DNA of 63,917 nucleotides, counting the filler, from Collodictyon triciliatum (taxonomy: Eukaryota), in assembly GCA_043381765.1 (NCBI GenBank). It is 8 parts of 8 records of this genome, joined end to end, with 100 filler letters (N's around TTAATTAATTAA, not from the genome) between each part and the next. Parts side by side here need not be neighbours in the genome. Positions count along the whole stretch, not along the records: positions 1 to 7,912 come from JBHJMP010003676.1; 7 more parts are not named here. One strand, 5' to 3'. Below, piece after piece: positions 1 to 59,416 of this stretch. Position 1 is the first letter of the stretch, and each line of letters starts with the position of its first letter. The notes below the pieces were generated by a model. That model worked only from the letters and a program-made list of their open reading frames with translations, had not been told where the DNA came from and searched no databases. A program made the translations under genes and the position numbers.

Positions 1-2099
1 AAAATTTTTTTGTACGCTTAAAAAACAGTCGGAGTAGTTTCACAAGATACACCCGCAAGATTAAAAAAAAAAAAAAGACCAGATATGAGTATTGATATGA
101 TTACTTTTTATCTCAATGATTTTCGATTCTTTTAGTCCCGAGAAGAACGCTTTCCATTTGGTTGACTGTCTCATGTATTACCGTACTTGGCGAAGCAAAT
201 GTTAGCAGCTTATTATAATAACATTGGGGTGCATTTTGTAAAGAGGTTATTGCGCTTTATAAACCAAACAGTTCTTAAAGATGAGAATATGAAGAATGCT
301 ATTAAAAAGACAGAGTTACGAAAGTTAAAAAAAGAAACCATCTTCAAGACACTCGAAATATCGGAGCAATATAAAGAATGGGCTGCAACACATTTGCGCC
401 ATATCATTACCAACAATATTTTAAATGGTATCGAATATGACGTCAAAGTCAATCCAAATAATTACACGCCATACCTGATTTACATGAATCGCATTTTTGA
501 GGACATAGGAACCAAACTGTTTCAACCAATCTCTATAAGAACTACCAATATTTCATGTCATATTAGTCTAGATACTGCATGTTTGATGGGTCTATTAGTA
601 TTATCTGGAATGACATTATTGCTGAACAATATATAAGGATGCAAAGGGACACTATGGGATGAGTTCTTTGAAATGAAGAAGAGAGTCTTCCATCAAAGAG
701 ACCAGAATTTTAAATACATGATACAAACAGACGGCTTGGTGGTGTCATTATTGTTTGGAAACAAAGGTATTTCAAATTCAAAATTCAAAATTCAAAATTC
801 AAATATAATAAAAACCCCAAGAATATGTTTATATATATGAACTTCCCAAAGAGCGGTTATCTTTATTAGCCAAAAAAAAAAAAGCAGTTAGACTGGATGC
901 AGGCAAGTTTAATTTGGTTTACATGGTGGACGAGGCAGGTAAGAAATTACGTTACACGTCACACCAAAAATGACATGATAGCATATCTCTTAAAAACCAC
1001 AAAATACTCTTGCGCGAGAATGAAAAGTATAATGCTTCAGGGGGCATAAATGGAAACAGATTTACAAAGTGCTGTTTCTTTTAGTCCCATGACTGTTGAA
1101 GGGAATCAGCGGTTTGAGACATCAAGAGTATCTTAAATCGATTTAGAAACAGAACTGAGTAAACATAATCATGATGGTCGACTATGAAAATTTCGAAAAT
1201 ATGCATCTATGAAATCAAGATTCCAGATAGAATTATCCAGATTTTATTTTTTTTTTTCCTTTATTCGATTCAAAGTGTAGCGAGGTTATGCCATACAAAG
1301 GGGCGGGACGGGAGCGCATGGGAGAGAGCAAACGCGAGTAGGAGAAGACACTACCGTGGAGAGGGTAGCACTGGAAAGTAGTCAGTGATAGCGAGCTGGT
1401 CAGGTGGGCGACCCAACTGGTTGATTGATTGCGTGGGTAGCATGGGTTGGATATGTTGTGGGAGATATCTTACGACACATTCCCACATATCTCTTCGCTT
1501 GCGGTCAGAGTAGCGAAGAATGCGGCCGTGTTTCAGCAGGTTGTTCAGGAAGCTGTATTGCACGAGGCTCTCAAGCCTGGGTACATTGATTTCTCGTTCG
1601 GGTGAATCATTGGAGCGAGAGAATGCACGCACACTCCATAAGGACCACATCAATTATCCAGATTTTGTGAACAAGTAACTTTTCGAAAGATGATATGGAG
1701 ACAGTATGTTAATACAAAAAGAAGTGAAGAATTGTTTATGGAACGTATCGAAAAGACATTTGGCCAGGATGTTATACTAGCGTATGGAGACTGGAGCACA
1801 AAATGTCTGATGAACCATTTTATGCTAACAATCGGAAGAGGATTACGAAAAATACTATCCAAACGTTTTCAAACAGTGTAGATGAATTAAGAACCTCCAA
1901 TATGTGCTGCAACTGCGAAAAAGAAAAACTAAGATATATGTAACCGAAAGGAAATACATAATAGTTGTATAGATGTCTCATGTGTAAAGAAAGCAATCGC
2001 TCAGAAAGCAAACAAAGTGAATTCTTGACAAGAGACTTTAACAGCGCTAAAAGTATACTCAAGAAAGTTCTTTTAATCCTTCAAAATATGCCTACACCT

Positions 2100-2110
<11 letters not shown>
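1..2110 (+). pseudogene. Fanzor1/TnpB-like RuvC nuclease pseudogene (frameshifts, stops, LINE insertion)
   Basis: Fragments read: MIQTDGLVVSLLF; RuvC-I LDAGKFNLVYMVDEAGKKLRYT (D 896-898); IEKTFGQDVILAYGDWS...GRGLRKILSKRF; RuvC-II VDELRTSNMCCNC (E 1884-1886); zinc finger RCLMC; RuvC-III TRDFNSAKSIL (D 2034-2036). Confidence 0.85.
1246..1651 (-). mobile_element. 5'-truncated non-LTR retrotransposon (L1/Tx1-like LINE, family A) inserted in Fanzor copy 1
   Basis: Perfect 15-bp TSD AATTATCCAGATTTT (1231-1245 and 1652-1666). 3' end reads CTACACTTTGAATCGAATAAAGG plus poly(A). ORF 1351-1653 aligns with the C-terminus of the zf-RVT ORF at 22019-22819. Copy 2 has the empty site. Confidence 0.9.
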
Positions 2111-2156
<46 letters not shown>

Positions 2157-2280
2157 AGGCTGTTGGGTCTTTTCTGGCAGCCTTCACCACTACACGACCT
2201 TTGCGAAAAAAGTGGCGAGACCTTGGATACTGGCGCACTAGGTTTACGATTCGAAAGATTGGTATACCCCTTCTAGTATA
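2157..2280 (+). ncRNA. Candidate Fanzor omegaRNA scaffold, copy 1
   Basis: Non-coding block just 3' of the Fanzor ORF, conserved with 19361-19484(-). Stems AGGCTGTTGG/CTGGCAGCCT, GGTCT/AGACC and ATACTGG/CTAGTAT; GAAA loop. Confidence 0.65.
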
Positions 2281-2432
2281 CCCAAACTATTCTTCAAGCA
2301 CAGAGGGAAAAAAATTATTTTATCGGCACAGCCACAAGTATGGCGTGCATCACAGGGAACAGCGAAAGGTCGTTCGTCCAAGAAAGAACCCCAGCAAGCC
2401 GAGCACAGCGGAAAAGGGGCTTCTTTTTCTTT

Positions 2433-2468
<36 letters not shown>

Positions 2469-3290
2469 CGTCCAAAATGAAAAGAAACATGAGAAAAAAT
2501 GATTTTGAGAAAGAAACCATAATACCGTGCCCCGACCTGCGAGTCGGCCTCCAGTCATCACTGCGTGCCTGGCCATCTCGTGACTTGGGTGACTAGTCTT
2601 TGCGCAAGCCTCTCTTCCTGATTCGACAAGAATCGAGCATCCTATCACCAGAGGCCGCGGTCCTTTGCGCCCTGCACTTCCATCACAAACAAGTGCATGT
2701 GAAAAGGAAAAAGGGGTTTTTTTTCTTGTCGATTAATTATACAAATCTGGAGCGTTTTGGGCAGTCCAATAATCTGGATTCAAATCTGATGTTGAAATTC
2801 GGCCATGAAAAACAAACAGACGCAAACGTTGGTGCGGTCGGCCGCCCATCGTGGAGCCGCGCTGGGTTCTGCAGTGTCTGGGGGAGTTGTGGATCGGCGT
2901 CGGATTTCAGATCGGCATGATTCTCTTGTACTTTGGGCCTTCTGACTTGCAGAGAGCTCCTCTTTTTTTCTTCTTTTTTTTCTAAAAAAAAAAAACTGAA
3001 AAGAGTGAATGTTCTTTGATTTTCATCTTTGCTCTGAGATGTTTTTCGTGCGCTACGCTTTTGTATTTTATTTATGCTATTTTACTTCATGTCATGTGCA
3101 TTATGTGCTGAAATGTTGATCGAAAACTTGGGCAATATGTCCGTGTGTGGAGTGGTAGTTTAATGTAACCTGGCAGATTTGTCTTCTTTTTCGCCGGTTG
3201 GATTTCGCAGTATTCAAATTGAACTTCTAGATTCAATGCCATTGTTTGTATCCCCTCAAAGTTTAGAGAAAGAGGGACAGAAAGAACGGT

Positions 3291-6200
3291 ATGCACGGAA
3301 TCCGTTCCTTGGTCAGCAAAAAGAAGCGAAGATTCCAGGACTCTGGTTTCGACTTGGATCTCTCCTGTCTGATTTTGATCAATATTTTTCTCTTTTTCTT
3401 TTCTCTTTTTCTTTTCTCTTTTTCTTTTCTCTTTTTCTTTTCTCTTTTTCTTTTCTCTTTTTCTTTTCTCTTTTTCTTTTCTCTTTTTCTTTTCTCTTTT
3501 TCTCTTTTTCTCTTTTTCTCTTTTTCTCTTTTTCTCTTTTTCTCTTTTTCTCTTTTTTCTCCTTTTTCTCCTTTTTTTTCCTTTATTCGAATTCTCTTTT
3601 TTCTCCTTAATATTTATCTTTTGAAATTATTTTCTTAAAGGTGTACCCTTTTCCTAAATATCTGTTTAATACTATTCTCCACTCTTTCTTGGTCTAAATA
3701 TTTGCTCATGCATAGATGTTACTGAACGCATCATCGCCATGGGATTCCCAGCAGAAAAGTTAGAGGGTATGTACCGAAATCACCGAGACGAAGTCCTTAG
3801 GTACGCACTTATTTGCTCTACTTCAATGTTGTTTTTTGTCTTTTTAGAATCATGATATTTGCTTACTGTGGCAACATTCCACTAATCGCAGGTTCTTGGA
3901 GGAAAGGCACAAAGACCACTACAAGCTATATAATTTGTATGTATGATTATTTGAGAATGAGAAAGGAAAGCTTGGTAGAGTGAGAGACGGGTTGTTTGCT
4001 CTTGGTTTCATTCTACCCAATATTTGTTTCTGCCTCATCTAATTTCATCATGTACCTACTTATCTATATTGCTCTGCACTAGATGTTCAGAGAGGCATTA
4101 CGATACTTCAAAATTTCAAAATCGAGGTAAGTGGGTTATGTCATTATGTCGAGATGCTCTCATATATCCACATACATACATGTGTGTCACAAAATGAGGA
4201 CACTTTTGCTTAAAATGCATTCATTACAGTCGTTCGTTTCCCATTTGACGACCACAACGCCCCACCGTTTACACTAATATCTGAATTTTGTCAAGATATG
4301 GTAAATTTGACATCCCTACATAGTCATTGATAAAAGAAAAATACAAATTAATCCTGTATTTACTTGATTTTTTTAACTCATCCCATGTGTTAGTCCTTTC
4401 CTTTACTGTCAATTTTATATTAGTGCGATGGTTGGATTTACATAAGCTTACCTTGAGATATAAAAATTGATTGCCTGTTGTGTGGCATTTATATGTTCAA
4501 TGTAATCTGATCAGTAGGACTACTCAACTGCTCGATTGTATTTTTTGTAGGATACTTTCCTCACGGAGAGCTCAGAAAATGTTGCTGTTGTTCATTGCAA
4601 AGCTGGTAAAGGCCGTACGGGGGTGATGATCAGCTGCTATCTTCTATACTGTCAAATGTGGCCAACTGCTACCGAGGCTCTTAAGTTCTTCGCGGCCAGT
4701 CGTACAGAAGACCTCAAGGTAGCTTTTATCAAATAACCTCATGGCTTACTTAAATCCCTTGGAACAAAATGTCAATGAAACAAACTATTTCACATGATGG
4801 AATACAAATACTATACCATCAAATTACACTCTAATGCTGATATGTGTTGATTATTTACTATTTAATTCGACCATAATAACAGGGCGTGACGATACCAAGT
4901 CAGAATCGATACGTGCATTATTTTGACCAATATCTGAAAGAAGGGGATAAAAAGACTCCCATATTTGAGTTGAAGGCAATTCGGTTTCATACTATCCCAG
5001 ACTATGGCTCCAGTGGGGGTTGTGGTACGGTTGTATATTTCATAGTTTTTACACTGTTTTTATTGTTATGTGCGATTGGTGGTCAGAGTTGGCCAAAACA
5101 GTATATTGCTCTTCATAATTAAGCAATTCATGTCTCTCTTTTAGATCCAAGACTCCGGATCTTTGTTGGAAAACAACCCGTTTTTCATTCTAAAACTTAT
5201 GTAATTGCACTGCGTAACATAATTACCAATACTCATAACATTTGGTCGATGTATTATTTTTATTTTATTTTTATTTTATTTTTATTTTATTTATTTTTAT
5301 TTTATTTTTATTTTATTTTTATTTTATTTTTATTTTATTTTTATTTTATTTTTATTTTATTTTTATTCGTGCGTATGACCATCAATTTTGATTTGTTGTA
5401 AAAAAAAATACATTTTTAGAATATAAAAAATGAGGGCTACGATATCATGGAGTTTCCTATCGATGGGATAAATGTCAGCGGAGACGTGAAGATAGAATTC
5501 CACCACAAGGAGACCTTCTCTGCTGTAATTTTCAGACAAAAAAATTGAGAAAAAACGAAGTGAAGAAAAATAAGAGAATCTTGGATTTACACTCACTTTT
5601 TTTACTTGTACAGGTTGAGATGTTTCATTTTTGGTTTAATACCATGTTTGTTGACCCCGAAAATGCGTTCTTTACCAGAACTGAATTGGACAAAGCCCAT
5701 AAGGAAAAGAGAAAGAAGTATTTCGACGTATGTCTTTCCTCTTCATACAACTAATGACGTATATTCCGCTTTTAAGAGTGATTTGGAAATGAAACTAAGT
5801 ATCATTTGAATGCACAGCCTAACTTCAAGCTTGAGCTAGTACTCATCCCAAAAGGATTCGAGGATGAACAAAGTCGACCTCGCTTGTGCGTCAAATATCT
5901 ATCTAATTTTGATTTAATTAGTATGACCATATATTTATGTTGAACTTTTTCTTTTTCTTTTTCTTTTTCTTTTTCTTTTTCTTTTTCTTTTTCTTTTTCT
6001 TTTTCTTTTTATTAACGCCTATAATTACGGTCGATTTGCAATAATTAATAACAATCAGGGCCAACCCACGATTTTCTACACTGGAGCCTCGTCCCACGCA
6101 AAGATCAGGCACAGTAGAAGAACACCGCGTTGTGATGCCCATCGCCCATCTTGGTGAAGCCATGACAGAGCTCAAGTTGACAGAACCCTTGCCCATCGAA

Positions 6201-7912: not shown

Positions 7913-8012
7913 NNNNNNNNNNNNNNNNNNNNNNNNNNNNNNNNNNNNNNNNNNNNTTAATTAATTAANNNNNNNNNNNNNNNNNNNNNNNNNNNNNNNN
8001 NNNNNNNNNNNN
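7913..8012. other. Artificial contig linker N44-TTAATTAATTAA-N44 (also at 15921-16020, 23929-24028, 31936-32035, 39932-40031, 47928-48027, 55923-56022)
   Basis: Identical 100-bp spacer with stop codons in all six frames. Contig lengths never increase along the window. Confidence 0.97.
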
Positions 8013-8110
8013 TTTTTGGTTTTTGGTTTTTGGTTTTTGGTTTTTGGTTTTTGGTTTTTGGTTTTTGGTTTTTGGTTTTTGGTTTTTGGTTTTTGGTTTT
8101 TGGTTTTTGG
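8013..8110. repeat. (TTTTTGG)n heptamer array; reverse-complement array (AAAAACC)n at 48028-48130
   Basis: Visible directly in the sequence. Confidence 0.9.
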
Positions 8111-8515
8111 TAGAAAAAGGTTCTGTAGAAAATGATTAGTGAGCAGAATAAATGAGCAGAAAATATATTCGATGTACCAGAGAAGGTGAGAGTGATGAAT
8201 GATGCGATTGCTAATGCGTTATGGCGTTCATCATAATCCTATTGCTATATAAATTTATAGGAGAGCGAAAAGAGAATGGGAATCTTAAGGATGATAAGAT
8301 AAATAAATAAATAAAAATTATATCTCTGTGCGTTAAAAGGGAAAGAATGAAAGAAACCGTATAGATGGATAAGGTCATATACATTGTTTGTTTATTTGAT
8401 TGCTGATAGTGCATTCTGTTTGTTTGTTATTCAGGGTTTGAATAAGGAGCGAAGAGGTGGGGTAGAGAGGTGGGAAAAGAAGGAAAAAAGAAAGAAAGAA
8501 AAAAAGGATACTTCC

Positions 8516-10558
8516 TCAATCATCGCCAAACAAAGAAGTGCGAAGGACATTCTTTTTCCTGACGTTCACATTGCGTGCCGTACCGGCGACGGCGTCAGGC
8601 AAAGGCCCATCGTCATCATCGGCAAAAGGGTCGGAGGGTTTTGCTTGGGACAGAGGAGCAGCAGCAGGTTTTGGCTTCGGCATCGGGAGGAAGCCGTTGT
8701 CATCGTCGTCATCGTCGCCAAAGAGATTTGTCTTGCGGGGGACCTTTTCCGAAGACGGCTGGGGCAGAGACCCTGTTTGGGTATGCACGCGAGCCGCCGG
8801 CTTTGCCTCAAACAAATCGAGAGGAGTCGCCGCGGGGTCCTGCTTCTGGCTGGAGGACGAGAAGAGCGAGAGGCTGAATTTGGAAAATGAGGAGGAGGAA
8901 TTGCGGTTGCGGTTGGGGTTGTGGCTATCCTCAGGTGCGGCTGTGAGCGGTGATGGTGATGATGATGTCGACAACGGCTGCTGTTTTTGGACGTGTGGCT
9001 GTGCTTGTGGCTGTGGCTGTGCTTGTGGCTGCGGTGCGGCGGTGTGGCTGCGGCTTGTGGCGGGTCTGCTGGGGAAAAGCTCGACAATGGAGTCGGAGTG
9101 GCGCGGGGGCTGGAAGAGCGGGTCTGCGTAGAGGGGAGAGTCAGCGTGCGGGGCAGGGGGGAGGGCCGGGACGACCGGGGCGTCGCTGTGGGGAATAGTC
9201 TGCGGCGGGGCAGACTTTTCCGGGCACGGGGGCGCCGAGGCGGGCAGGATTCTGTCCCAGGGGATGGCGTACGGGTCGATGCTCTGGAGGGGCGCGATGT
9301 CTGCGGGGAGGTCGGGGAGGGGCTGGGCAAAGGCTGCGACGAGTTCGGAGCGCAGGGTGGAGAGGAGGGCGGGGTCTGCGGCGACGTGTGCGGCGTGGCG
9401 GCGGAGGGCGGCGGGGGCGTCGAGGGTGTGGTCGGTGTGGTCATTGTGGCCGGTGTGGCCGGTGTGGGGCAGGGTGAGGCGGGGGTCCGCGGCGGCGGGC
9501 AGGGCGGGCGGCAGGGGCGGGGCGCACAGGGCGGGCAGTGCGGCGCGCAGCAGCGGGGCGGCCACAAGCAGCGGCGTGTAGTTGCGGTGGGAGGCGGCGC
9601 GCACGAGCGGCGGCAGGGCGGCGAGGCTGCGGGCACGTGCGGCGAGGCGGGCGGTGTGGCGCGTGCGCACGTGCAGCAGGTGGGTGTGGCGGGCGTGTGC
9701 GGCGGCGTGCAGGGTCCTGGCGGCGGCACACAGGGTGCGGAGCGCGTGGGCGTACTGGGCGTGCAGCAGGTGCAGCGCGGCATCGAGGGCGGGCGGGGCG
9801 GCAGCGGGGCGGGGCAGGTGCTGGACCAGGTGCTGGGCCGCGTGGGCAAGGGGCGCCACCCGCCCGCCACAGGACCCCCCCGGGTGGCACAGCGGGGCGC
9901 ACGCCGGGCACAGCAGCGCGTCGCACTCCATGCACACGTGCGTCGGGGCGGCGGTGGCGGCGGGGCAGGCGCGGCGCTGGCAGGCGGGCGGCGGGGCGGG
10001 CGGCAGGTGCAGCAGCGCGGCGGGCGTGACGGGCACCACGGTGTGCCGCTGCGTGCGGCGGGCGCGCGTGTGCTGCGTCTGGCACTCGGCACACAGCAGC
10101 TCGCCGCAGTCCATGCACGCCCCGCTCGCCTCGCCGCCCCCCACGCACACCTCGCACCCCACGCGCTCGCCTCGCCCCACGCGCTCCACCTGCCGCAGCC
10201 GCCCCACCACCCCGTGTGGCCGCACGCGCAGCCGCTCGCCCCCCGCCTCCGCCTCCGGCACCCACCCGCCCCCTGTCCGCTCGCACAGCCCGCAGCCCCC
10301 GCCGCCTCCCTCCGCATCCGCGCACGCTCCGCACACAAGGTGCAGGCACCCCAGCAGCGCGCTGTCCTCCCCGCACTCCCCGCCGCACCCCGCACACTCC
10401 AGGCTCCACTCCGCCTCCGCCTCTGCCTCTGCCTCCAGTGTCCGCTCCCCTCTCGTCTCAGCTTCTCTGCTTTCCATCTCACGGGCGCTGCGGTCTCCCG
10501 TTTCCGTCTCTTCTCTCTTCTTTCTGTCTGTGCAAATGGGGTTTGGCGTTTGTGACAA
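8516..10558 (-). CDS. RING / B-box / B-box / coiled-coil (TRIM-like) protein, intronless, very GC-rich
   Basis: RING CAGC...CLHLVCGAC...CGLC; B-box CEVC...ACMDCGELLCAECQTQH...H; second B-box VCMECDALLCPAC...H; acidic C-terminal LFGDD motifs. Confidence 0.8.
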   Translation of the reverse strand: MSQTPNPICTDRKKREETETGDRSAREMESREAETRGERTLEAEAEAEAEWSLECAGCGGECGEDSALLGCLHLVCGACADAEGGGGGCGLCERTGGGWVPEAEAGGERLRVRPHGVVGRLRQVERVGRGERVGCEVCVGGGEASGACMDCGELLCAECQTQHTRARRTQRHTVVPVTPAALLHLPPAPPPACQRRACPAATAAPTHVCMECDALLCPACAPLCHPGGSCGGRVAPLAHAAQHLVQHLPRPAAAPPALDAALHLLHAQYAHALRTLCAAARTLHAAAHARHTHLLHVRTRHTARLAARARSLAALPPLVRAASHRNYTPLLVAAPLLRAALPALCAPPLPPALPAAADPRLTLPHTGHTGHNDHTDHTLDAPAALRRHAAHVAADPALLSTLRSELVAAFAQPLPDLPADIAPLQSIDPYAIPWDRILPASAPPCPEKSAPPQTIPHSDAPVVPALPPAPHADSPLYADPLFQPPRHSDSIVELFPSRPATSRSHTAAPQPQAQPQPQAQPHVQKQQPLSTSSSPSPLTAAPEDSHNPNRNRNSSSSFSKFSLSLFSSSSQKQDPAATPLDLFEAKPAARVHTQTGSLPQPSSEKVPRKTNLFGDDDDDDNGFLPMPKPKPAAAPLSQAKPSDPFADDDDGPLPDAVAGTARNVNVRKKNVLRTSLFGDD

Positions 10559-12324
10559 CAGAGAGAAGAAGCGTGAACAAGAAGGTTGTGTGCAAAGTTT
10601 TCTTTTTTTTTTCTTTTTTTCTTCGTTAGGAGGTGTGTATGGGACGTGGGGGTAGGCTTGGTTGTTAGGCTTTGCTTTGTGGATCGGAGGTTAGAAATAA
10701 TTTGAAGGAATTTGGATGTCTTTAGACTCTCCCCCTCTGGCATCGGCCGATCGCGCATACGCTCTCGACCTTCTTCGCTGGCGATTTATGACGGGGGTTG
10801 ATTGATCGAGAATACAAACGAAAAGGCTTTTAATCAAATGTGGAATCTATATATCAATACAATAAAACACACTTATTTACAATATCAAAATATTAAAATA
10901 ATCTTAATTGAGGATAAATTGATTTGAATCATATGTACACGTTATTAGCACAATAGGGATGCGTTTCTCCTTCTAGTTTACCGATGTATGAATTCTCTTC
11001 CACAAGTCCGTTGCGCGAACGAAAATCAAAATAGGATGTCCAAGAATAGATATTCGTTGAACGGATGTGGAGAGAAAACGGTGGAATTTTCATAGATTCT
11101 GTACATTTAAGGAAATTACATATTCAACCAGAATATCCTAAGTCTGGAATATAACATCTTAATATAGAATGTTGACATTAACGGAAAACTTGAAGACACC
11201 ATTTTTTTACGAAACCATCACTGGCTGCGAAATGAAAGAAAAGCAAGAAGGAAAGGCATCTCTCAATAAGGATACAAATGGATCATCCAAAACTGGATTT
11301 GTATCCAAACACACCAGAAAAGGCAAATCCGCTATTCAGAATCTTTCTGCACATTTTCCTTTTTTCTCCCACTTTCCTCGTATTAAATTTTAAAATTTTT
11401 TTTCTCTTCGTCATCCTATGACGCAAAATCAAATTAGAAAAACACAAAATTAATGTGTCTTTCGTCTGTCGTTGTTTTTCAGATGTCCAATGGCCTTCCT
11501 TTCTTTTTTTTGCACAAATAAAATACAATGAAACTCCCCCTCAATTTTTTTCCAATAATGACGAATAGTTGGTTTTTTTTCCCTTTCGTAAAAGCATTGC
11601 GAATAAAGCCAACATTCAAAAAATTCGGTACCAAAAAGCTCTTTTCGCAGACTTTCTGGTCTCTCCCACAAGCTCTTCAGCGACCTGTGTCTGTTTATTT
11701 CAATTGAAAATGAGCAAAGAGGCTGAGATTGCATTCTTTTTCTTGATTGTTTGAATTTCATCATTAACAGTTCACGACCTGTTTTTTTTTTTCATATTTT
11801 CATTTTTCATGATTTATTGAAAGGGAGATCTTGTTTAAAAAAAAACAAAAATCGAAGAGAAAAGAGCAGATCCATCTCAGCAACTATTTTTTTTTTCGTT
11901 CTCTCCTCGCCAAACCAGATCAAATGGCGTAGCGATCTAAGAAATGGCCTCAACCACCCTCAAACATTTCATCGTGCCTGCTTGAATCATCGGTAGTGAA
12001 GAGAACCGTCGCAATCAAAAAACAAATCAAACATATTAACAAATCGCTCACACCCGCAAGCTCACCTCTCCCTGCCCCTCCTCTTCATACCACGCCAATT
12101 ACAGAAGAAAAGCACAAAAAGAAAAAGAAGACGAAAAGGAGAGGCAAACATATTGCCACACCAATGACAAAAGCAAAAGCAAAAGCAAAAGCAAAAGATA
12201 AAGCAAAAGCAAAAGCTAAAGAAGTGAAAGAGAACACGCAGAGCTCACAACAGCACCCAAGAAAACACCCACACAGCGCATTCCGCAGCACGGGACTAAT
12301 CACAGGCGACAGCCACACACAGGA

Positions 12325-13638
12325 ATGCGCACGAAAGCCCAGCCACAACAGAGCCAGCGAAGAGAGCCCAACACCGCGCCGCCTGTGGTCTTTGCACTGC
12401 AGTTCCCCGCGTCCCGCCACAACTCTCCTGATGCTGTAGCCACAACCACAACCACAGCCACACATGCCCACCCGCTCCCCTGCGATCTCTCGTTTGTCTT
12501 CAAGCTCGCTTGCAGCCACACTCCGGCACCAAAGCGACTGCGCCCCCTGGCCGCACCATATACAGCCACAGCCACAGCCACAGCCACAGCCACAGCCACA
12601 ACCACAGGTGCGGGGTGCGGACTCGATCGCGTTGGGGCGGTGGGCCGAGGGCGAGGCCGGGGAAGAGGCCGGGGAAGAGGCAAAGGCCAGAGCAGCCGCA
12701 TTCGGCGCATGGATGTAGTTGTCGGGCAGCGCGATCGGGTGGGGGGCGGGCACAGGCAGCAGCGAGATAGCGACGACGAAGCAGAGATCGATGCGGCCGA
12801 GCGAAGCGAAGGGGAGAGCGAGGAGGATGTTGAAAAAGACGAAGTGGAGGACGAGGAAGACGAGGTAGAGGAGGAGGAAGAGGAGGAAGAAGAAGAGGAG
12901 GAGGAGGAAGAAGAAGAGGAAGAGGTGCTGCATGAGAGCCAGGTCTTCTTCGGATCCTTGATTTCGCCCAGCCTATCCCTCTCCCCGACAACCGCAATTG
13001 CAACCACAGCCACAGCCACAGCCACAGCCACAGCCACAGCCACAGCCACAGCACCTCAGCGGGCAAAGGGTCCGCCTGCGCCGTCGGGCCGGAGCAAAGA
13101 GCGCAGCGGGAAGGCGCACAAGCGGTGTCTGTACTGCAACGCAAACGAGACGGTGATGTGGCGACAAGGCCCCGAGGGCAAAGGTACCCTCTGCAATGCC
13201 TGCGGCGTCCGCTGGAAGCGCGGCTCCCTGCACCTGACACCCACGACAACGACGGCATCCATCAACACAGCCACAGCAGTCGCCACAGCCACAGCCACAG
13301 TGGCCGCCACAGGAAACGATGACGTCGTTGTCGCCACGCCCTCGTCGTCGCCACCGCTTCCTGTGGCAAAGGCCCACCACAAACGCGCATCGCCCTCGTC
13401 CCCGTTCTCCGCCCTGTGGCAGACGTCCTCGTATTCATCCCACGCCTCCTCGTCTGCGTCCCCGTCGCCCTCCTCCTCGTCATCCTCGTCTTCAGTCTCA
13501 GCAGCAGCATCGCAGGCGTCCTCAACACCGCCCAAAGCAGCAGCGGCATCGACATCGACATCGACATCGACATCGACATCAGTAACTGTGGTTTCCGCTT
13601 CTGCCACACCCGTTCTTGTGCCTCGTCCTCGTCGATGA
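12325..13638 (+). CDS. GATA-type zinc-finger transcription factor with low-complexity tracts
   Basis: CLYCNANETVMWRQGPEGKGTLCNACGVRW is a C-x2-C-x18-C-x2-C GATA finger. Poly-E and (TA)n tracts. Confidence 0.88.
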   Translation: MRTKAQPQQSQRREPNTAPPVVFALQFPASRHNSPDAVATTTTTATHAHPLPCDLSFVFKLACSHTPAPKRLRPLAAPYTATATATATATATTTGAGCGLDRVGAVGRGRGRGRGRGRGKGQSSRIRRMDVVVGQRDRVGGGHRQQRDSDDEAEIDAAERSEGESEEDVEKDEVEDEEDEVEEEEEEEEEEEEEEEEEEEVLHESQVFFGSLISPSLSLSPTTAIATTATATATATATATATAPQRAKGPPAPSGRSKERSGKAHKRCLYCNANETVMWRQGPEGKGTLCNACGVRWKRGSLHLTPTTTTASINTATAVATATATVAATGNDDVVVATPSSSPPLPVAKAHHKRASPSSPFSALWQTSSYSSHASSSASPSPSSSSSSSSVSAAASQASSTPPKAAAASTSTSTSTSTSVTVVSASATPVLVPRPRR

Positions 13639-14598
13639 GACACTTGCACTATCCATCAACTTATCTTTTGATTTCTCGTTATCATTTATTTTATTTTTCC
13701 CTTGTTTTTTTTCCCTTCCTTATATGCGCCTGAGATTAAGTTATCTGAAACAGCAAATGATGGAGAGATGGTTCTGTCAGGCAGTTTTTTCCCCCATTCG
13801 ATTTCTATTTGCTCCGCCAAGATATCATTTTTAACTTTAATTCTAATATCCGCAGGATATTGTTCCCTTTTTTTTCTTCTTTTTTTTGCTGTTTAATTTT
13901 ATTGTTTTGAAAGGAGATTTTTTTCTCTTCTTTTTTTTTTTCTTTTCTCTTCCCCTTTTCTTTTTTCTTCCTCTTTCTCTTCGGACTATCTCCCTCTCAA
14001 TTTTTAAAAAGACACCTTTTCAGGGTTTGACAAAAGTACCGAAGGTAAATGATTGGGTGAACCATTTCTAGGAACACGTTCAAAACCACTATTTTTTCGT
14101 TTGTTTTTTCCATTCATTCGCATCATAAAGAGAAGTATGACCGCCGCAATATCTCATATTCTGACCATTACCTGGAGAGGCTTTTAGCAAACCAAAATCA
14201 CTTCTTTTTTTCCCTTTCGGGGTTTAGATTGCTGCGTACCCACCCTTGAGTAAACAAGGGAATCGAAAATAAAGCATTCATTTCTTCTCGCATAACAAAT
14301 CCTATTTGCCCCCAGCAGAATTGCTGGGATGATATTTTATTTACATATTACCGATTTACAGCCATATTTCTCTACACCTGAACCCCCTGGTGAACCAGCC
14401 AATATTATTGCACAATTATTGACTCATATGTTGCTAGAAAAAGATAAAATAAGACCCCTAGAAGACTTATATTCCACACATTTTTTTCATTCAATATGAC
14501 TTAGTATATACTACTTTGGTTTATATTTATGTATTTTTGGTAGGTCATGTAATATAACGACAAGACAAGGAGGTAGAAAGAGGTAACAGGTAGGGTAA

Positions 14599-15920: not shown

Positions 15921-16154
15921 NNNNNNNNNNNNNNNNNNNNNNNNNNNNNNNNNNNNNNNNNNNNTTAATTAATTAANNNNNNNNNNNNNNNNNNNNNNNN
16001 NNNNNNNNNNNNNNNNNNNNATAATAATACTGATAATAATACTGATAATAATACTGATAATAATACTGATAATAATACTGATAATAATACTGATAATAAT
16101 ACTGATAATAATACTGATAATATTGATTATAATAAATAAGTAATTAATATATAC

Positions 16155-18819: not shown

Positions 18820-19360
18820 TGAAGATCTAAAAGCCGTTTCCTCTGGAGATCTAGAGGAGATTCGTCAAAGTTTCTTCTGTTAAAAACACGCGCTTGGATT
18901 CGTTTCGTACGTTCTGGTATTTCTAATTCGTGCTTTGTTTCTGTAGACGTTCTGACAGGAGACTAAAGGTAAGAGTTTTCCCTCTCTACAACTCGAGCAG
19001 CTTTTTGTGCTGGGAAGCGTTATTTTCATTCTAGCTATTTATTTATTCCTCTCCTTGTTTCTTTTTTACTTATTTTTCTTTCTCTTTTCTCCGTATTTGC
19101 TGTGTGATCTGCTTGGGTGATTTGTGGGTCTTATGAAAGTGGTTTTGAATACCACATATGGGACGGAGATGGAGCAAAGACGAAGCAACCATTAAGAACA
19201 CTATTCTGGAATATATACTTCAACATTTTTTCATCTAATTTAAGCGACAGAACCCTCAAAATAACGCATAAATATGTGCAAATGTATAATTTTTTCAAAA
19301 TTAATTTTTAACTGATTGATTGAAGTTATAAAATATATGATTTGCTAATTTTTTAAAACT

Positions 19361-19484
19361 TATACTAGAAGGGGTATACAATCTTTCGATTGGTAAACTT
19401 CGTCCGCTAGTATCCAAGGTCTCAACACTTTTTTTCACAAAGGTTGCGTAGCGGTGAAGGGTGCCAGGAAAGACCCAACAGCCT
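19361..19484 (-). ncRNA. Candidate Fanzor omegaRNA scaffold, copy 2
   Basis: About 14 substitutions and 2 indels versus 2157-2280 by manual alignment. Stems CCGCTA/TAGCGG, CAAC/GTTG, CAATC-GAAA-GATTG and ATACTAG/CTAGTAT. Confidence 0.65.
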
Positions 19485-19489
19485 ATTTT

Positions 19490-21416
19490 TTTTAAAAAGG
19501 AAGGTGAGTGCATATTTTAAAGGGTTAAAAGAACTTTCTTGAGTGTATTATGGGCGCTGTTTAAGTCCTTTGTCAAGAATACACTTTGTTTGCTTTCTTA
19601 GCGATTGCATTATTTACATATGATACATCTGCGAAACTTTTTTGAATTTCCTTTCGGTGTCATATATTCCAGTTCTTTTTCGCGGTTACAACACATATTG
19701 GAGGTTATAAATTCATCTACACTGATTGTTTCAAAACGTTTGGATAGTATTTTTCGTAATCCTCTTCCGATTATTGACGTAAGATGTTTCATCGGGCATT
19801 TTCTGCTCCAGTCTCCATACGCCAGTACAACATCCTTGCCAAATGTCTTTTCGATTCGGTCCATAAACAATTGTCCACTTCTTTTTGTATTATCATATTG
19901 TCTCCATCTCATCTTTCGAAAAGTTACTTGTTTTAAAATCTAGAAAATTCTATTTGGTTTCTTAATTTCATAGATACATATTTTCGAAATATTTATCATA
20001 ATCGACCATGCATGAATTATGTTTACTCAGTTCTGTCTCTAAATCGACTAAAGATAGTCTTGATGTCTCAAACCGCTGATTCTCTTCAAAAGTCAGGGGG
20101 CCAAAAGGAACAGCATTTTGTAAACCTTTTGTCATGCATATCCCTGAAGCATTGTACTTTTTTTCTCGCACAAGAGTATTTTATGATTTTTAAGAGATTT
20201 GCTATCAAGTCTTCTTTTGTGCGCCGTGTAACGTAATTTCTTACCTGTCTCATCCACTATGTAAACCAAATTAAACTTGCCTGCGTCCACTCCATCTTTT
20301 TTTTTTCGCTAATAAAGATAACTGCTCTTCAGAAAGTTCATCTATATAAACATTTTCTTGGTTTTTTTTTGATTATATTTGAATTTTGGATTTTTTTCCT
20401 TTATTCGATTCAAAGTGTAGCGAATTTGGATTTTGTATTTGAAAAACCTTTCTTTTGAAAGAATAATGACACTGCCAATCCGTGTGTTTGTATCATGTAT
20501 TTAAAATGGTAGTCTTTTTGACGAAAGACCCTCTTGTTCATTTCAAAGAAATCATCACATTAAGTCTCTTTGCATCTTGATTTATTCTTCATTAATGATG
20601 TTTTTTTTTCCAGAAAATACTTATCTATCAAACATGCAGTATCTAGAGTAATATGACATGGTATATTGTTAGGTCTTATAGAGATTGGTTGAAATAGTTT
20701 GGCTCCAATGTCCTCAAAAATGCGATTCATGCAAATCAGATATGGAATGTTCTTATTTGGATTTACTTTGACGTCAAATTCGATACCTTTTACAATATCG
20801 TTGGGAATGATATGATTCAAATGCGTTTTAATCCATTCTTTGTCTTGTTCTGGTATGTCGAGATTCTTGGAGATGGCTTTTTTTTTTAACTTTCGTAACT
20901 CTGCCTTTTTAATAGCTCCCGTAACATTCTAATATTTAGGAACTGTTTGATTTATAAAGCGCAGTAATCTCTTTACAAAATGCTCCTTAATGTTATTATG
21001 ATAAGCTGTTGGCATTTGCTTCGCAAAGTACGGTAATACATGAGACCGTCCAACCAACGGAAAGCGTTCTTCTCGGGTCAAAAAACTCGAAAATCATTGA
21101 GATAAAAAGTCATCAGTCTTTATTCATTTCTGGTTTTTAATATTGTGGGTCTATCTTGTGAAACTATTCCGATTGTCTTTAAAGCGTACGAAAAAAACAT
21201 TTCATCGATTGTGGGGAATTGTTGTGATTTCAATATGTAACATCTTGCAGAGGGATAAGTTTCGGAAACCAAGTTATGACACATTAAAACCGTATCGTTG
21301 ATTTTGTCATAGTCATCCGGATTCTTTACAGTCGACTTTAGATATGTTTTTACATTTCGATAGCCTGGTTTTCCAGACTTAAGATTCCTAGACTCAAGAC
21401 GTTTCCTTCTCTTCAT
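19490..21416 (-). pseudogene. Fanzor1/TnpB-like nuclease pseudogene, full length but frameshifted
   Basis: N-terminus YRNVKTYLKSTVK...INDTVLMCHNLVSETY; KLFQPISIRPNNIPCHITLDT; RuvC-I VDAGKFNLVY (D 20285-20287); LAYGDWSRKCPMKH; VDEFITSNMCC; RCIICK; KDLNSA (D 19565-19567). Confidence 0.88.
20395..20421 (-). mobile_element. Ultra-short LINE-A 3'-tail insertion inside Fanzor copy 2
   Basis: TTTCCTTTATTCGATTCAAAGTGTAGC is identical to the tail at 1254-1281. Flanked by GAATTTTGGATTTT and GAATTTGGATTTT. Confidence 0.8.
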
Positions 21417-23814: not shown

Positions 23815-24028
23815 GTTCCACTTTGAATATTTGACTCTGTGCATCATGTTACTTCTGACGTTCTTCATAACTCGGCAATATTTATCTGGCCTCCTGCATT
23901 TAACCCATCTTCCTTATTCCCAACCCCCNNNNNNNNNNNNNNNNNNNNNNNNNNNNNNNNNNNNNNNNNNNNTTAATTAATTAANNNNNNNNNNNNNNNN
24001 NNNNNNNNNNNNNNNNNNNNNNNNNNNN

Positions 24029-29338: not shown

Positions 29339-31800
<2,462 letters not shown>

Positions 31801-35487: not shown

Positions 35488-37507
35488 NNNNNNNNNNNNN
35501 NNNNNNNNNNNNNNNNNNNNNNNNNNNNNNNNNNNNNNNNNNNNNNNNNNNNNNNNNNNNNNNNNNNNNNNNNNNNNNNNNNNNNNNNNNNNNNNNNNNN
35601 NNNNNNNNNNNNNNNNNNNNNNNNNNNNNNNNNNNNNNNNNNNNNNNNNNNNNNNNNNNNNNNNNNNNNNNNNNNNNNNNNNNNNNNNNNNNNNNNNNNN
35701 NNNNNNNNNNNNNNNNNNNNNNNNNNNNNNNNNNNNNNNNNNNNNNNNNNNNNNNNNNNNNNNNNNNNNNNNNNNNNNNNNNNNNNNNNNNNNNNNNNNN
35801 NNNNNNNNNNNNNNNNNNNNNNNNNNNNNNNNNNNNNNNNNNNNNNNNNNNNNNNNNNNNNNNNNNNNNNNNNNNNNNNNNNNNNNNNNNNNNNNNNNNN
35901 NNNNNNNNNNNNNNNNNNNNNNNNNNNNNNNNNNNNNNNNNNNNNNNNNNNNNNNNNNNNNNNNNNNNNNNNNNNNNNNNNNNNNNNNNNNNNNNNNNNN
36001 NNNNNNNNNNNNNNNNNNNNNNNNNNNNNNNNNNNNNNNNNNNNNNNNNNNNNNNNNNNNNNNNNNNNNNGAAATTGATACAGTTGATGCATAAATACCT
36101 ACATTTCCCCTCCTTATTCCAATCAAATATTAAGAATAAAACTACAAATGCGTCATATTTGCTATGTGCATTTGCAGAAGAGAAAAGTTGCAGTTCAAAT
36201 CTTGGGTGGGTAGATACCGCTGCTGAAAAGAAGCCAATATTGGGTTGAATATGGTGGCTTTATCAGACATCTCTCCATATCTCTGTTTGCTTTTGGTCAG
36301 AACAGCAACCATGGAGGGTTTGGTATGGTGGTAGTCCAACATCAATATTTCCCTTGTTTTTTTTTATTTCGAACCTTAAATTTTATTTATCTTGCACTAT
36401 ATGCCTTTATTATTTGAGACCTTGGAAAGTAACTCATATGACTCATCGATTCTTTGGATTTCCATTGGTTATGGGTGAGATTAATGACAGGGAATGATGC
36501 GGCGCTGAAAAGTTTTGCGTTGATTCTAATATGGAATGATTTTTACCTGTTGAGGCTTTGCAGCAAGTGCATTGTCCTCCTAGCTAAAAGGCAGATAACC
36601 TTCGCGAAGTTCACGGCGCTTTAGAGCAGTTTTAATGAGGGCATCTTTTGGTAAAGGGCTTCTCGAAATGACCTTTGCAAGGACATATAGTGACTTTGTG
36701 AGTGGCTTGTTTTTGTGCACATAAGAGTACAAGTGAATATCAATCATATACACTATGGAAACGAGCTATCTGTGCTCTATCGGCTCACCAGCAATCTCTT
36801 TCATGACGGATATGGGGTTGCCTCGCTGTGCTTATTTGGGCTTTACCCAAGCGCAAATAATAAAAAGTGGCCGTATTCATCAGGTCGAGGTAGTGATAAG
36901 ACACAATGAAATTTTATGCATGGAGCCCATTTACAGGAAACCAAGGATACAAAAAAAAAAAAACATATCATGATCGAGGTGTGATTAAATTAAGCAAACC
37001 TAAACCATTCTCATGGCAGAGGAAAAGATTGGGTCAGATGCAACTTTGGCGTACTCTGTAGAGGGTACATAACTTAACTGAATAGTGCATCGCAGATGAG
37101 AACACAGAACTAGGATTGAGCAGAAATGTGTACAGAGTATGTCAATCATATATGGGACAAGGCGGATATTTTCATAAGTTAGATTGATAGAGTGACTAAA
37201 AGCATGACTTAAGATATTTACAAACCTCTGATAGAAGTATGATAGAAATATTTATTTTCGGATAGGCTCAATGTTCTTGACTTTCTCTATTCTTTTCGAA
37301 GATGATACTCATGGTCATATTAAAGATATAATTAAAACTGAACTTTTATGTACAACCTTGTAATGGTTCATTGGCGCACGAGTTTGTGTTATACTACTGT
37401 AAAAAGAATATCCAGCAAGGCTGCGTCATACATCACGACTGATAAAACCAGATGAAAAACGCTTTGTGTAGAATAAGACTCCAATTCAAATCGTACAGGC
37501 TGCAAAA

Positions 37508-56022: not shown

Positions 56023-56075
<53 letters not shown>

Positions 56076-56292: not shown

Positions 56293-59416
<3,124 letters not shown>

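What the first reader, a model, noticed from the sequence alone, without database searches (positions are those of the whole stretch)
2157..2280. Conserved structured 3' non-coding block: candidate omegaRNA scaffold with copy-specific guide
Seen: 124 nt directly after the ORF differ from 19361-19484(-) by only ~14 substitutions and 2 indels, and similarity stops at CCCCTTCTAGTATA. Changes that keep pairing: ATACTAG/CTAGTAT becomes ATACTGG/CTAGTAT (A-U to G-U), and CAAC/GTTG becomes CGAC/GGCG (A-U to G-C at one pair, with a neighbouring mismatch). A GAAA-capped hairpin is intact in copy 2. Known: Fanzor and TnpB omegaRNAs come from the element's 3' end and read through into flanking DNA, which forms the guide. 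Inference: the guides would be CCCAAACTATTCTTCAAGCA (2281-2300) and AGTTTTAAAAAATTAGCAAA (19360-19341).
Basis: partly seen in the sequence, partly recalled or inferred. Interest (0 to 1): 0.85.

Follow-up and report, generated by a model that had tools for sequence, protein, structure and literature searches.

The report
Relic guide-RNA end of dead Fanzor transposons
The 124-base block is the right-hand end of two decayed copies of a Fanzor1 (eukaryotic TnpB-like) transposon and has the position and layout of that family's guide-RNA scaffold, but both nuclease genes are dead, so it is an ordinary relic and not a working system.

Summary
Window 2157-2280(+) and 19484-19361(-) differ by 14 substitutions and 2 indels, and similarity stops after ...CCCCTTCTAGTATA.

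The block is the last 124 nt of a ~2.06-kb Fanzor1 element. Copy 1 is 1-2280(+) and copy 2 is 21416-19361(-). A relative, P0002, matches solved Fanzor1 proteins at E 2e-28 to 4e-23. Both ORFs are broken by frameshifts and stops.

The block is not wholly non-coding. Its first ~50 nt are the C-terminal coding tail, with a likely ancestral TGA stop at 2204-2206. About 74 nt of non-coding sequence follow.

Evidence for selection on these two copies is absent:
- The block is no better conserved than the rest of the element (87.2% vs 83.8%, p=0.38).
- It folds no better than shuffled sequence (z -0.5 to -1.0).

Support for the omegaRNA reading comes from relatives. In 67 giant-virus loci the same place holds a covarying structure: a 7-bp stem-loop plus a terminal helix ending at the element boundary. 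Flanks beyond it are random.

The window block can form an analogous 8-bp stem and a 7-bp terminal helix. A covariance model built from the relatives does not find it.

Verdict: a relic omegaRNA scaffold, a new member of a known kind, of low to moderate interest.

The parts
1..2280 (+). Copy 1 of the Fanzor1 element. It is cut at its 5' end by the window start (it begins at about residue 77 of relative P0002). It is a pseudogene and carries a 405-bp foreign insertion at 1247-1651.
   Evidence: tblastn of P0002 gives pieces in frames +1, +2, +3, +1, +3 with in-frame stops. blastn against copy 2 gives 82-87% identity in 4 blocks.
2106..2155 (+). Run of 50 A inside the C-terminal ...LFKK(K)n Q region. 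Copy 2 has 8 A here. This is a homopolymer expansion.
   Evidence: An X3 contig (record 12) spans the same gap with about 34 nt.
2157..2206 (+). Coding part of the block: the C-terminal tail QAVGSFLAAFTTTRPL plus the likely ancestral stop at 2204-2206 (CGA in copy 1, TGA in copy 2 and in other copies). 2157-2183 can form an 11-bp hairpin.
   Evidence: Tail of P0002/P0001...KKQAVGY.... Copy 2 sequence. The 2204 C>T variant occurs on contigs of X1, X3 and X4. Fold.
2184..2218 (+). SL1-like stem: UCACCACU / AGUGGCGA. 7 of 8 pairs form in copy 1 (A30.C60 broken). The loop is 19 nt and holds a 4-bp mini-hairpin at 2193-2205. The 5' strand starts at the TTCACC motif shared with the viral relatives.
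   Evidence: pairs; the MFE contains this stem. 2216 C>T in other copies restores the A-U pair. Motif comparison.
2227..2279 (+). Terminal domain: 7-bp helix AUACUGG / CUAGUAU closing a 39-nt interior. The interior holds the GAAA-capped hairpin at 2248-2261, which is damaged in copy 1. The 3' strand ends 1 nt before the element boundary.
   Evidence: 2232 G>A in all other copies seen makes the helix perfect.
2281..2300 (+). Flank of copy 1, the putative guide if the block were transcribed through. The guide could start at 2277 instead.
   Evidence: Similarity to copy 2 ends at 2280. A third copy diverges at 2276. An X3 contig identical to 2259-2409 confirms this junction.
19361..21416 (-). Copy 2 of the Fanzor1 element. 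It runs full length from the ATG at 21416 and is a pseudogene, with at least 3 frame changes and at least 6 in-frame stops. It carries a 33-nt foreign footprint at 20391-20423.
19361..19484 (-). The block in copy 2. CAG>TAG at its first codon and TGA at block positions 48-50. SL1-like stem at 19457-19422 (7 of 8 pairs). Terminal helix at 19413-19362 (7 of 7 pairs). GAAA hairpin at 19392-19379 (5 of 5 pairs).
19341..19360 (-). Flank of copy 2, the putative guide.
   Evidence: There is no second site within 2 mismatches of either 16-nt flank in the window.

Best explanation
The block is the right end of a Fanzor1 transposon, preserved in two old copies that have been decaying neutrally.

**Function in the live ancestor (inferred)**
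- The last ~50 nt of the ORF plus ~74 nt of non-coding DNA up to the element boundary encoded the omegaRNA scaffold.
- The scaffold had an 8-bp first stem-loop anchored on the TTCACC motif. It then had a second domain closed by a 7-bp helix, AUACUAG/CUAGUAU, whose 3' strand is the transposon terminus.
- Transcription running about 15-20 nt into the flank would supply a copy-specific guide for the Fanzor1 nuclease.

**Present state**
- Both nuclease genes are pseudogenes.
- The scaffold has collected pair-breaking changes at the same rate as the rest of the element.
- The two loci are most likely inert relics.

**Status of each step**
- Shown: family assignment, position, boundary, decay, and a covarying RNA at the same place in relatives.
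- Inferred: that this subfamily's block was itself an omegaRNA, its exact fold, and the guide.
For: **1. Family**
- Fragment 19610-19912(-) finds P0002 at 65% identity (3 proteins at E<=0.001 among 18 candidates).
- P0002 matches the solved Fanzor1 proteins GtFz1 (2.1e-28), PpFz1 (2.7e-24) and SpuFz1 (3.7e-23).
- The D/E/D RuvC motifs GVDAGK, VDEFITS and TKDLNSA can still be read.

**2. Position and boundary**
- The block is the last 124 nt, and identity between the copies stops at TATA.
- A third, diverged copy on an X3 contig has yet another flank.

**3. Literature**
[quoted passage not shown] The GtFz1 omegaRNA overlaps 17 C-terminal codons (PMC10432273, section 7 read).
- Fz1 omegaRNAs are 75-150 nt. 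SL1 is 7 bp, and SpuFz1 and PpFz1 have one further stem-loop before the guide (PMC11423790, passages of section 5 read).
- Here the non-coding part is ~74 nt, and the span from the first stem to the boundary is 97 nt.

**4. Relatives**
- 243 proteins at E<=1e-10. 417 confirmed stretches in IMG/VR, of which 80 loci were kept.
- On 67 of those loci (64 distinct rows) a structure of 26 pairs is 97.3% paired, against 91.2% in shuffles. 12 pairs show changes on both sides (0 of 500 shuffles reach this). Slid controls are 46-56% paired.
- It includes a 7-bp SL1 and a 10-bp helix whose 3' strand is the conserved terminus ...AAAGGTGTAA.
- The last 24 nt before that terminus are 88% identical between loci. 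The next 24 nt are 33% identical, which equals the composition expectation. All 67 flanks are distinct.

**5. Layout in the window**
- The block shows the motifs TTCACC ... GAAAAAGT ... AGACC ... TTG(G)AT in the same order as the relatives, judged by eye.
- Its terminal helix starts at the same motif and also ends 1 nt before the boundary.

**6. Other copies**
- They carry A at 2232 and T at 2216. That makes the terminal helix perfect and restores the A-U pair that copy 1 lacks in the 8-bp stem, so copy 1's departures are derived.
Against: - The covariance model R1 of the relatives' RNA, searched with filters off over the whole window, gives 28 matches at E<=10. None overlaps either block.
- nhmmer with the four closest viral loci, and tblastn with the last 75 aa of 8 relatives, find nothing beyond ~2153 / ~19460. 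Homology of the block to the relatives' RNA therefore rests on short motifs seen by eye.
- The block is not more conserved than the ORF (p = 0.38) and not more stable than shuffles.
- Between the two copies no pair of the homology-guided model changes on both sides while staying paired. 6 of its 35 pairs are broken in one copy or the other: 4 in copy 1 and 2 in copy 2.
- The 3' strand of the window's first stem lies after the A-run, whereas in the relatives it lies before it. The stems are analogous, not strictly homologous.
- No inverted repeat matching the right end was found upstream of copy 2.
Confidence: 0.62

Rival explanations
1. The block is only the C-terminal coding tail plus the transposon's terminal DNA sequence, a site for the transposition machinery or simply the end of the unit. 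In this subfamily it never made a guide RNA. Its apparent helices are chance features of a 124-nt sequence.
For: - Fold energies are indistinguishable from shuffles.
- There is no excess conservation.
- Neither the CM nor nhmmer links the block to the relatives' RNA.
- 50 of the 124 nt are explained by coding.
- Two copies cannot show covariation.
Against: - Every Fanzor1 studied so far makes its omegaRNA from this place (PMC10432273 section 7; PMC11423790 section 5, passages read).
- The relatives of this protein family have a strongly covarying RNA here.
- The window's terminal helix sits at the matching motif and ends 1 nt before the boundary, as in the relatives.
- In other copies the helices are more complete than in copy 1.
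Confidence: 0.2
2. The scaffolds are still in use. Like the ORF-less 'ghost' loci of Spizellomyces punctatus, these dead copies are transcribed, and their RNAs are loaded in trans by a Fanzor1 protein from an intact copy elsewhere in the genome. The two flanks would then still act as guides.
For: - S. punctatus has 134 ORF-less loci that keep the omegaRNA region (PMC10432273, section 7 read).
- Several further diverged copies of this element exist in the same organism or population (X1 record 2; X3 records 12 and 13; X4 records 16-22).
- Copy 2 keeps 33 of 35 modelled pairs.
Against: - The block decays as fast as the dead ORF.
- Copy 1 has 4 broken pairs, 2 of them in the GAAA hairpin.
- No intact copy was seen. 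The genome is not held.
- No expression data were available.
Confidence: 0.1
3. The similarity reflects a segmental duplication of one dead insertion and not two transposition events. The 'boundary' would then be a duplication breakpoint and say nothing about an element end or a guide.
For: Only two copies lie in the window. Copy 1's left end is outside the window, so only one boundary can be seen.
Against: - Further copies with other flanks exist. The X3 record 13 loose end begins at 2276, within 4 nt of the same point.
- The two copies carry different secondary insertions.
- In the relatives, conservation also ends 1 nt after a terminal helix.
Confidence: 0.05

Closest known systems
SpuFz1 (Spizellomyces punctatus Fanzor1) locus and its omegaRNA (Saito et al. 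2023, PMC10432273, section 7 read)
   Same: - ~2.1-kb single-ORF element.
[quoted passage not shown] Here ~74 nt lie between the inferred stop at 2204-2206 and the boundary at 2280.
- The guide is the variable flank.
- Many decayed or ORF-less copies occur in one genome.
   Different: - SpuFz1 loci have 30-nt inverted repeats. None was found here.
- SpuFz1 copies are ~82% identical, and 19 of 42 loci hold full-length genes. Both copies here are dead.
- No RNA or cleavage data exist for this subfamily.
- Protein similarity is remote (E 3.7e-23 to P0002).
GtFz1 and PpFz1 omegaRNAs (Xu et al. 2024, PMC11423790, passages of section 5 read)
   Same: - A first stem-loop of about 7 bp followed by one or more stem-loops before the guide.
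- Total length 75-150 nt.
- The GtFz1 RNA overlaps the last 17 codons (PMC10432273, section 7), as the first stem here overlaps the last ~7 codons.
   Different: - The window's first stem is 8 bp with a 19-nt loop and one mismatch in each copy.
- The fold is predicted, not solved.
- The omegaRNA sequences of the solved complexes are in a supplementary table that I could not open, so no direct alignment was made.
Conserved 3' RNA of the giant-virus relatives of this protein family
   Same: - Same protein family (38-47% identity to P0002).
- The same order of short motifs, TTCACC / GAAAAAGT / AGACC / TTGAT.
- A stem on the TTCACC motif.
- A terminal helix whose 3' strand ends 1 nt before the element boundary.
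   Different: - R1 does not match the window block.
- The viral interior is ~65 nt and the terminus is ...GTTTTAAATGnnnAAAGGTGTAA. The window has a 39-nt interior and ends ...CCCCTTCTAGTATA.
- The 3' strand of the first stem lies on the other side of the A-run.
ISDra2 TnpB omegaRNA (reRNA) of IS200/IS605
   Same: - The guide RNA is made from the 3' end of the nuclease gene and the transposon right end.
- The guide is the flank just past the boundary (as summarised in PMC10432273 and PMC10530073, passages read).
   Different: - It is prokaryotic, with a much longer overlap with the ORF.
- It has a TnpA-dependent transposon with defined left-end and right-end hairpins.

Membership tests
Fanzor1 element (protein side) | Encodes a TnpB-like protein that matches Fanzor1 proteins over WED/REC/RuvC | tested here: met
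   - P0002 (65% identical to window fragment 19610-19912) matches 9cer GtFz1 at 2.1e-28, 9cf0 PpFz1 at 2.7e-24 and 8gkh SpuFz1 at 3.7e-23.
- tblastn of P0002 covers residues 1-630 on copy 2 and 77-627 on copy 1.
Fanzor1 element (protein side) | Intact ORF with RuvC D-E-D and a zinc ribbon | tested here: not met
   - The motifs can be read (GVDAGK, VDEFITS, TKDLNSA, CCN.E...C..C).
- Both ORFs are broken: copy 1 has 4 frame changes, a 405-bp insertion and about 10 in-frame stops. Copy 2 has at least 3 frame changes and at least 6 stops.
Fanzor/TnpB omegaRNA | Lies at the 3' end of the nuclease gene, overlapping or just after the stop codon | tested here: met
   The block spans the last 16 codons, the inferred stop at 2204-2206, and 74 nt beyond.
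Fanzor/TnpB omegaRNA | The conserved scaffold ends at the transposon right boundary, and sequence beyond it differs between copies (the guide) | tested here: met
   - Two copies diverge after 2280 / 19361.
- A third copy diverges at 2276 with a third flank.
- The boundary is uncertain by 4 nt.
Fanzor/TnpB omegaRNA | Conserved secondary structure supported by covariation among copies | tested here: inconclusive
   - Only 2 full copies plus partial variant tables are available.
- No double change keeps a pair in the homology-guided model. 4 changes are wobble-compatible, and 6 pairs are broken in one copy.
- z-scores are -0.5 to -1.0.
- Variants in other copies make the terminal helix perfect and restore the A30-U60 pair of the 8-bp stem.
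Fanzor/TnpB omegaRNA | First stem-loop of about 7 bp (Fz1, Xu et al. 2024) | tested here: inconclusive
   An 8-bp stem, UCACCRCU/AGUGGYGA, is formable with 7 of 8 pairs in each copy. It is predicted only.
Fanzor/TnpB omegaRNA | Expressed as a small RNA reading 14-20 nt into the flank, and bound by the nuclease | not testable with these tools
   Needs small-RNA sequencing of the organism and RNP pull-down. Neither could be done here.
RNA family of the giant-virus relatives (model R1) | Scores against the covariance model built from 67 related loci | tested here: not met
   cmsearch with filters off over the whole window gives 28 matches at E<=10. None lies at 2157-2280 or 19361-19484. The best is 16.8 bits on an A/T-rich tract at 2383-2497(-).
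Any Rfam family | Match to a curated covariance model | tested here: not met
   - No credible match at 1600-2600: all 15 listed are far below gathering scores and lie on homopolymer tracts.
- None at 19200-19800.
- The relatives' 3' RNA also has no Rfam match. Only tRNAs were found in L002.

The most novel reading that the evidence does not exclude
The dead copies still work as 'ghost' guide donors. Their scaffolds are transcribed with the flank and loaded in trans by a Fanzor1 protein from an intact copy elsewhere in the genome. Pseudogenised insertions would then keep marking their own sites for RNA-guided cleavage. In this family, shared between a freshwater eukaryote and giant viruses, the C-terminal tail codons would be kept mainly by the RNA fold.
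Probability: 0.1. Interest if true: 0.5.

Novelty: new member of a known kind. Interest (0 to 1): 0.3.

Why it matters
As it stands this is an annotation result. Two decayed Fanzor1 insertions carry the remains of their guide-RNA end. This fits what has been known since 2023 about Fanzor and TnpB loci.

The useful by-product lies outside the window. The protein family is large: 243 proteins at E<=1e-10 and 417 confirmed stretches in giant-virus contigs. Its 3' RNA shows clean covariation, with a 7-bp first stem-loop, an optional second hairpin and a terminal helix ending at the boundary. It has no Rfam family.

That RNA model could help annotate Fanzor1 guide RNAs in giant-virus and protist genomes. 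It could also help choose compact Fz1/omegaRNA pairs for testing. The window's own subfamily would matter only if intact copies exist and its short scaffold (~97 nt from the first stem to the boundary) proves functional.

Tried and rejected
- **Whole-genome search for more copies:** no genome is held for this window.
- **Earlier findings of the scan:** nothing by place or by sequence.
- **Pfam on five ORF fragments:** no family. The single weak SRI hit (E 0.061) is below its cut-off. P0002 and P0003 also get no family in the local Pfam copy, although the source tables list PF26935.
- **Rfam:** nothing credible. **tRNA scan of 1-22000:** none.
- **Metagenome scan with P0002:** one locus (L001) at 21% identity, too far to align the RNA.
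- **Viral scan with P0002 alone:** none. The alignment query was needed.
- **Terminal inverted repeats in and around copy 2:** none. The 25 longest of 98 pairs are all 70-85% A/T-rich chance pairs, and none joins the right end to the region upstream of the ATG.
- **Links to the relatives' RNA:** CM R1 on the window finds no hit on the blocks. nhmmer with the four closest viral loci and tblastn with 8 relatives' last 75 aa find no significant hit inside the block.
- **Sequencing runs:** no RNA holder listed, so expression could not be examined. The 4 DNA holders are contigs only. Parts of the stretch without cover say nothing.
- **Exact 15-base pattern from the block:** 54 stretches in viral contigs and at least 120 in prokaryote genome contigs. 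blastn of the block against all 174 extends to at most 30 nt, so these are chance matches.
- **Second target sites for the two putative guides in the window:** none within 2 mismatches of 16 nt.
It competes with the 8-bp stem.
- **Rejected reading, significant homology of 'EKSGETLDTG' (window frame b) to the relatives' 'EKVGQSVDFT':** the similarity is seen only by eye and is not supported by tblastn.
- **Left end and TAM of the element:** not determined, because copy 1 lacks its left end. The relatives' upstream regions show about 75 nt of conservation before the ATG with no counterpart upstream of 21416.
- **Supplementary tables of PMC11423790 and PMC10432273:** these hold omegaRNA sequences and locus lists and could not be opened. 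They might allow a direct comparison.

Full report
**1. The observation**

blastn of 2157-2280 against the whole window finds one other copy, 19484-19361 on the minus strand. It is 87.2% identical over 125 columns, with 14 mismatches and 2 gaps. All other hits are 13 nt or shorter.

The MAFFT alignment (A1) shows identity up to ...CCCCTTCTAGTATA. After that, 5 of 20 flank columns agree.

It is, however, only the tail of a much longer repeat.

**2. What the repeat is**

The two blocks end two copies of a ~2.06-kb element. Copy 1 is 1-2280(+), cut by the window start. Copy 2 is 21416-19361(-). The rest of the element is 82.4-85.1% identical between the copies, in three blocks.

- ORF lists show only fragments.
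- Fragment 19610-19912(-) finds three proteins at E<=0.001 among 18 candidates. The best full-length one is P0002, 648 aa and 65% identical.
- P0002 matches the solved Fanzor1 proteins of Guillardia theta (2.1e-28), Parasitella parasitica (2.7e-24) and Spizellomyces punctatus (3.7e-23).
- tblastn of P0002 on the copies shows that both are pseudogenes. Copy 1 changes frame four times, carries a 405-bp insertion (1247-1651) and has about ten in-frame stops. Copy 2 changes frame at least three times and has at least six stops. The RuvC motifs are still readable.
- The surrounding window looks like ordinary eukaryotic nuclear DNA, with GATA zinc-finger, LRR and zf-RVT ORFs.

**3. The block is partly coding**

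Intact relatives do not stop where the decayed ORF of copy 1 seems to stop. P0002 ends ...LFKKQAVGYSSTALTVTHKRMRM* and P0001 reads ...KKQAVGYLP.

In the window the run of A is followed by CAG GCT GTT GGG ..., which reads QAVGSFLAAFTTTRPL. The 50-A run of copy 1 (8 A in copy 2) is thus an expansion inside the Lys codons.

In this frame copy 2 has TGA where copy 1 has CGA (2204-2206). Diverged copies on contigs of three of the four metagenome runs laid (X1, X3, X4) also carry T at 2204. The ancestral stop was therefore most likely at 2204-2206.

This makes about 50 nt of the block coding tail and about 74 nt non-coding. The non-coding length is close to the 75-nt scaffold that lies between stop codon and right end in SpuFz1 (PMC10432273, section 7 read).

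**4. No sign of selection on these two copies**

- The block is 109/125 identical against 1452/1732 for the rest of the element (Fisher p = 0.38).
- Minimum free energies are within one standard deviation of dinucleotide shuffles: z -0.92 and -0.79 for the blocks, -0.96 and -0.51 with 20 nt of flank.
That helix competes with a better stem.
- Rfam has nothing, and there is no tRNA-like gene.

**5. Relatives give the strongest support**

The protein family is large: 243 proteins at E<=1e-10 among 7037 candidates. An alignment of 42 of them (A2) found 417 tblastn-confirmed stretches in IMG/VR. 80 loci were kept (L002-L081), mostly on giant-virus MAG contigs, 38-47% identical to P0002.

Their C-terminal tails are unusually conserved, and the nucleotide conservation runs well past the stop codon.

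I aligned 67 of the 80 loci (A3). Three were dropped for lying at a contig end, seven as exact duplicates, and three (L033, L038, L053) for aberrant 3' ends.

I named a structure of 26 pairs from a column-pair scan and RNAalifold:
- an outer 4-bp helix;
- a 7-bp first stem-loop;
- a 5-bp second hairpin, gapped in 11-16 of the 64 distinct rows and plainly absent from the L012-type loci;
- a 10-bp long-range helix whose 3' strand is the conserved terminus ...AAAGGTGTAA.

The counts are:
- 97.3% of 1580 cells paired, against 91.2% in shuffles.
- 12 pairs with changes on both sides; 0 of 500 shuffles reach this.
- Slid controls 46-56% paired.

The last 24 nt before the terminus are 88% identical between loci. 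The next 24 nt are 33% identical, which is the composition expectation, and all 67 flanks are distinct.

This is what an omegaRNA scaffold followed by a guide should look like. The 7-bp first stem agrees with the 7-bp SL1 reported for three Fz1 structures (PMC11423790, passages of section 5 read). Jiang et al. describe the same kind of 3' conservation extending into the coding region (PMC10530073, passages read). Rfam has no family for this RNA.

**6. Does the window's block belong to that RNA?**

Formally it does not. The covariance model R1 (152 positions), searched with filters off, gives 28 matches at E<=10, and none is on either block. nhmmer and tblastn also fail.

By eye the block shares the motifs TTCACC, GAAAAA(A)GT, AGACC and TTG(G)AT with the relatives, in the same order and at similar spacing.

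Two helices are analogous:
- A stem starts on TTCACC: UCACCRCU/AGUGGYGA, with 7 of 8 pairs in each copy and a different pair broken in each.
- A 7-bp helix AUACURG/CUAGUAU has a 5' strand that starts just after the TTG(G)AT motif and a 3' strand that ends 1 nt before the boundary. This matches the arrangement in the relatives.

Between the strands of the terminal helix lies the GAAA-capped hairpin. It is perfect in copy 2 and has two broken pairs in copy 1.

One difference stands out. The 3' strand of the window's first stem lies after the A-run, not before it.

**7. More copies, from metagenome contigs**

Four coded DNA runs hold 151-nt contigs identical to the unique flank. One of them (X3 record 14, 2259-2409) bridges the right junction of copy 1, so the assembly is sound there.

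The same runs hold diverged pieces of further copies:
- X1 record 2, 2166-2244, 7 differences.
- X3 record 13, 2182-2276, 12 differences and 1 gap.
- X4 record 22, 2166-2258, 14 differences.
- X3 record 12.

Their shared variants (2196 G>A, 2204 C>T, 2216 C>T, 2232 G>A) equal the state of copy 2, so copy 1's states are derived. With A at 2232 the terminal helix is perfect. With T at 2216 the A30-U60 pair that copy 1 lacks in the 8-bp stem is restored.

X3 record 13 continues after 2276 into a third, unrelated flank. The boundary, and with it the first base of any guide, is therefore uncertain by 4 nt (...CTAG| or ...CTAGTATA|).

The variant table was cut (18 rows not shown) and contigs drop rare variants. 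These data are supportive but not a covariation test.

**8. Mechanism**

*Shown:*
- the Fanzor1 identity;
- the position of the block at the right end;
- a copy-specific flank;
- decay of both genes;
- a covarying RNA at the same position in the family.

*Inferred, from the published behaviour of SpuFz1 and GtFz1:*
- In live ancestors the transcript from about 2184 to about 15-20 nt past the boundary folded into stem 1 plus the terminal domain.
- It bound the Fanzor1 protein.
- It guided the protein to DNA matching the flank next to a TAM.

The TAM and left end could not be defined. Copy 1 lacks its left end, and no terminal inverted repeat was found. Neither flank has a second near-match in the window.

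**9. Comparison, novelty and verdict**

The closest known system is the SpuFz1 locus. It has the same size and the same ~75-nt non-coding scaffold after the stop. Its guide is the flank, and many decayed or ORF-less copies sit in one genome.

The block fits the positional criteria of a Fanzor omegaRNA. It fails the one formal RNA-family test available (R1). The covariation and stem-loop criteria were inconclusive, and expression and protein binding could not be tested.

I file it as a relic omegaRNA end of a known kind of element (confidence about 0.6). The main rival is that in this subfamily the segment is only coding tail plus transposon terminus (0.2). Continued use in trans, as with ghost loci, is possible but unsupported (0.1).

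Interest is low to moderate.

Noticed in passing
window 1247-1651; 20391-20423; also near 30604, 32751, 34819, 35446: A 25-33-nt sequence (the end of the 405-bp insertion in copy 1) recurs at six or more places in the window, in both orientations. In copy 2 only a 33-nt piece of it sits inside the Fanzor ORF. It looks like the terminus of another repeat family, or a footprint left by excision.
   Followed up: partly
window 2106-2155, 2435-2468, 31572-31665, 56023-56098, 58935-59028: Very long homopolymer runs: 50 A, 34 T, 32+61 T, 52+23 A, 94 T. The 50-A run is an expansion of an 8-A run present in copy 2.
   Followed up: no
window 7913-8012, 15921-16020, 23929-24028... 55923-56022; 35488-36070: Pairs of 44-N stretches recur about every 8 kb, and there is one 583-N stretch. 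These look like masking or scaffolding, not biology.
   Followed up: no
L002-L081 (giant-virus contigs), about 60 nt before to 85 nt after the Fanzor1 stop: A strongly covarying 3' RNA with no Rfam family. It has a 4-bp outer helix, a 7-bp SL1, a 5-bp second hairpin (gapped in 11-16 of 64 distinct rows) and a 10-bp terminal helix ending at ...AAAGGTGTAA. The stop codon falls at different places within the same conserved nucleotides in different clades, which points to an RNA-level constraint on the tail codons.
   Followed up: yes
L025, L026, L044, L053, L055, L061, L076 and others, ~75 nt upstream of the Fanzor1 ATG: Many viral loci share conserved sequence upstream of the ATG (...TAAAAATAAAATnTTTAGTAAATATATAGA ATG). 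Several also show what looks like the end of another conserved ORF (...GAATATTTAG) just before it, possibly a partner gene of the element.
   Followed up: no
L002:789-1102: Four tandem tRNA genes lie about 1.4 kb upstream of the Fanzor1 gene on a 254-kb giant-virus MAG contig.
   Followed up: no
window 1652-3400: Contigs identical to unique parts of this stretch occur in four coded DNA runs labelled lake water, freshwater and subsurface metagenomes (four studies). Diverged extra copies of the Fanzor element occur with them. The organism or a close strain is therefore present in those samples.
   Followed up: partly
window 8000-14000 and 60000-62700: GC-rich islands (0.46-0.60 against about 0.35 elsewhere) hold long ORFs. 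One has a GATA zinc finger (12325-13638). A 730-aa ORF (8566-10758, minus strand) has no Pfam match. An 841-aa ORF (60144-62669, minus strand) has a weak Sel1 hit.
   Followed up: no
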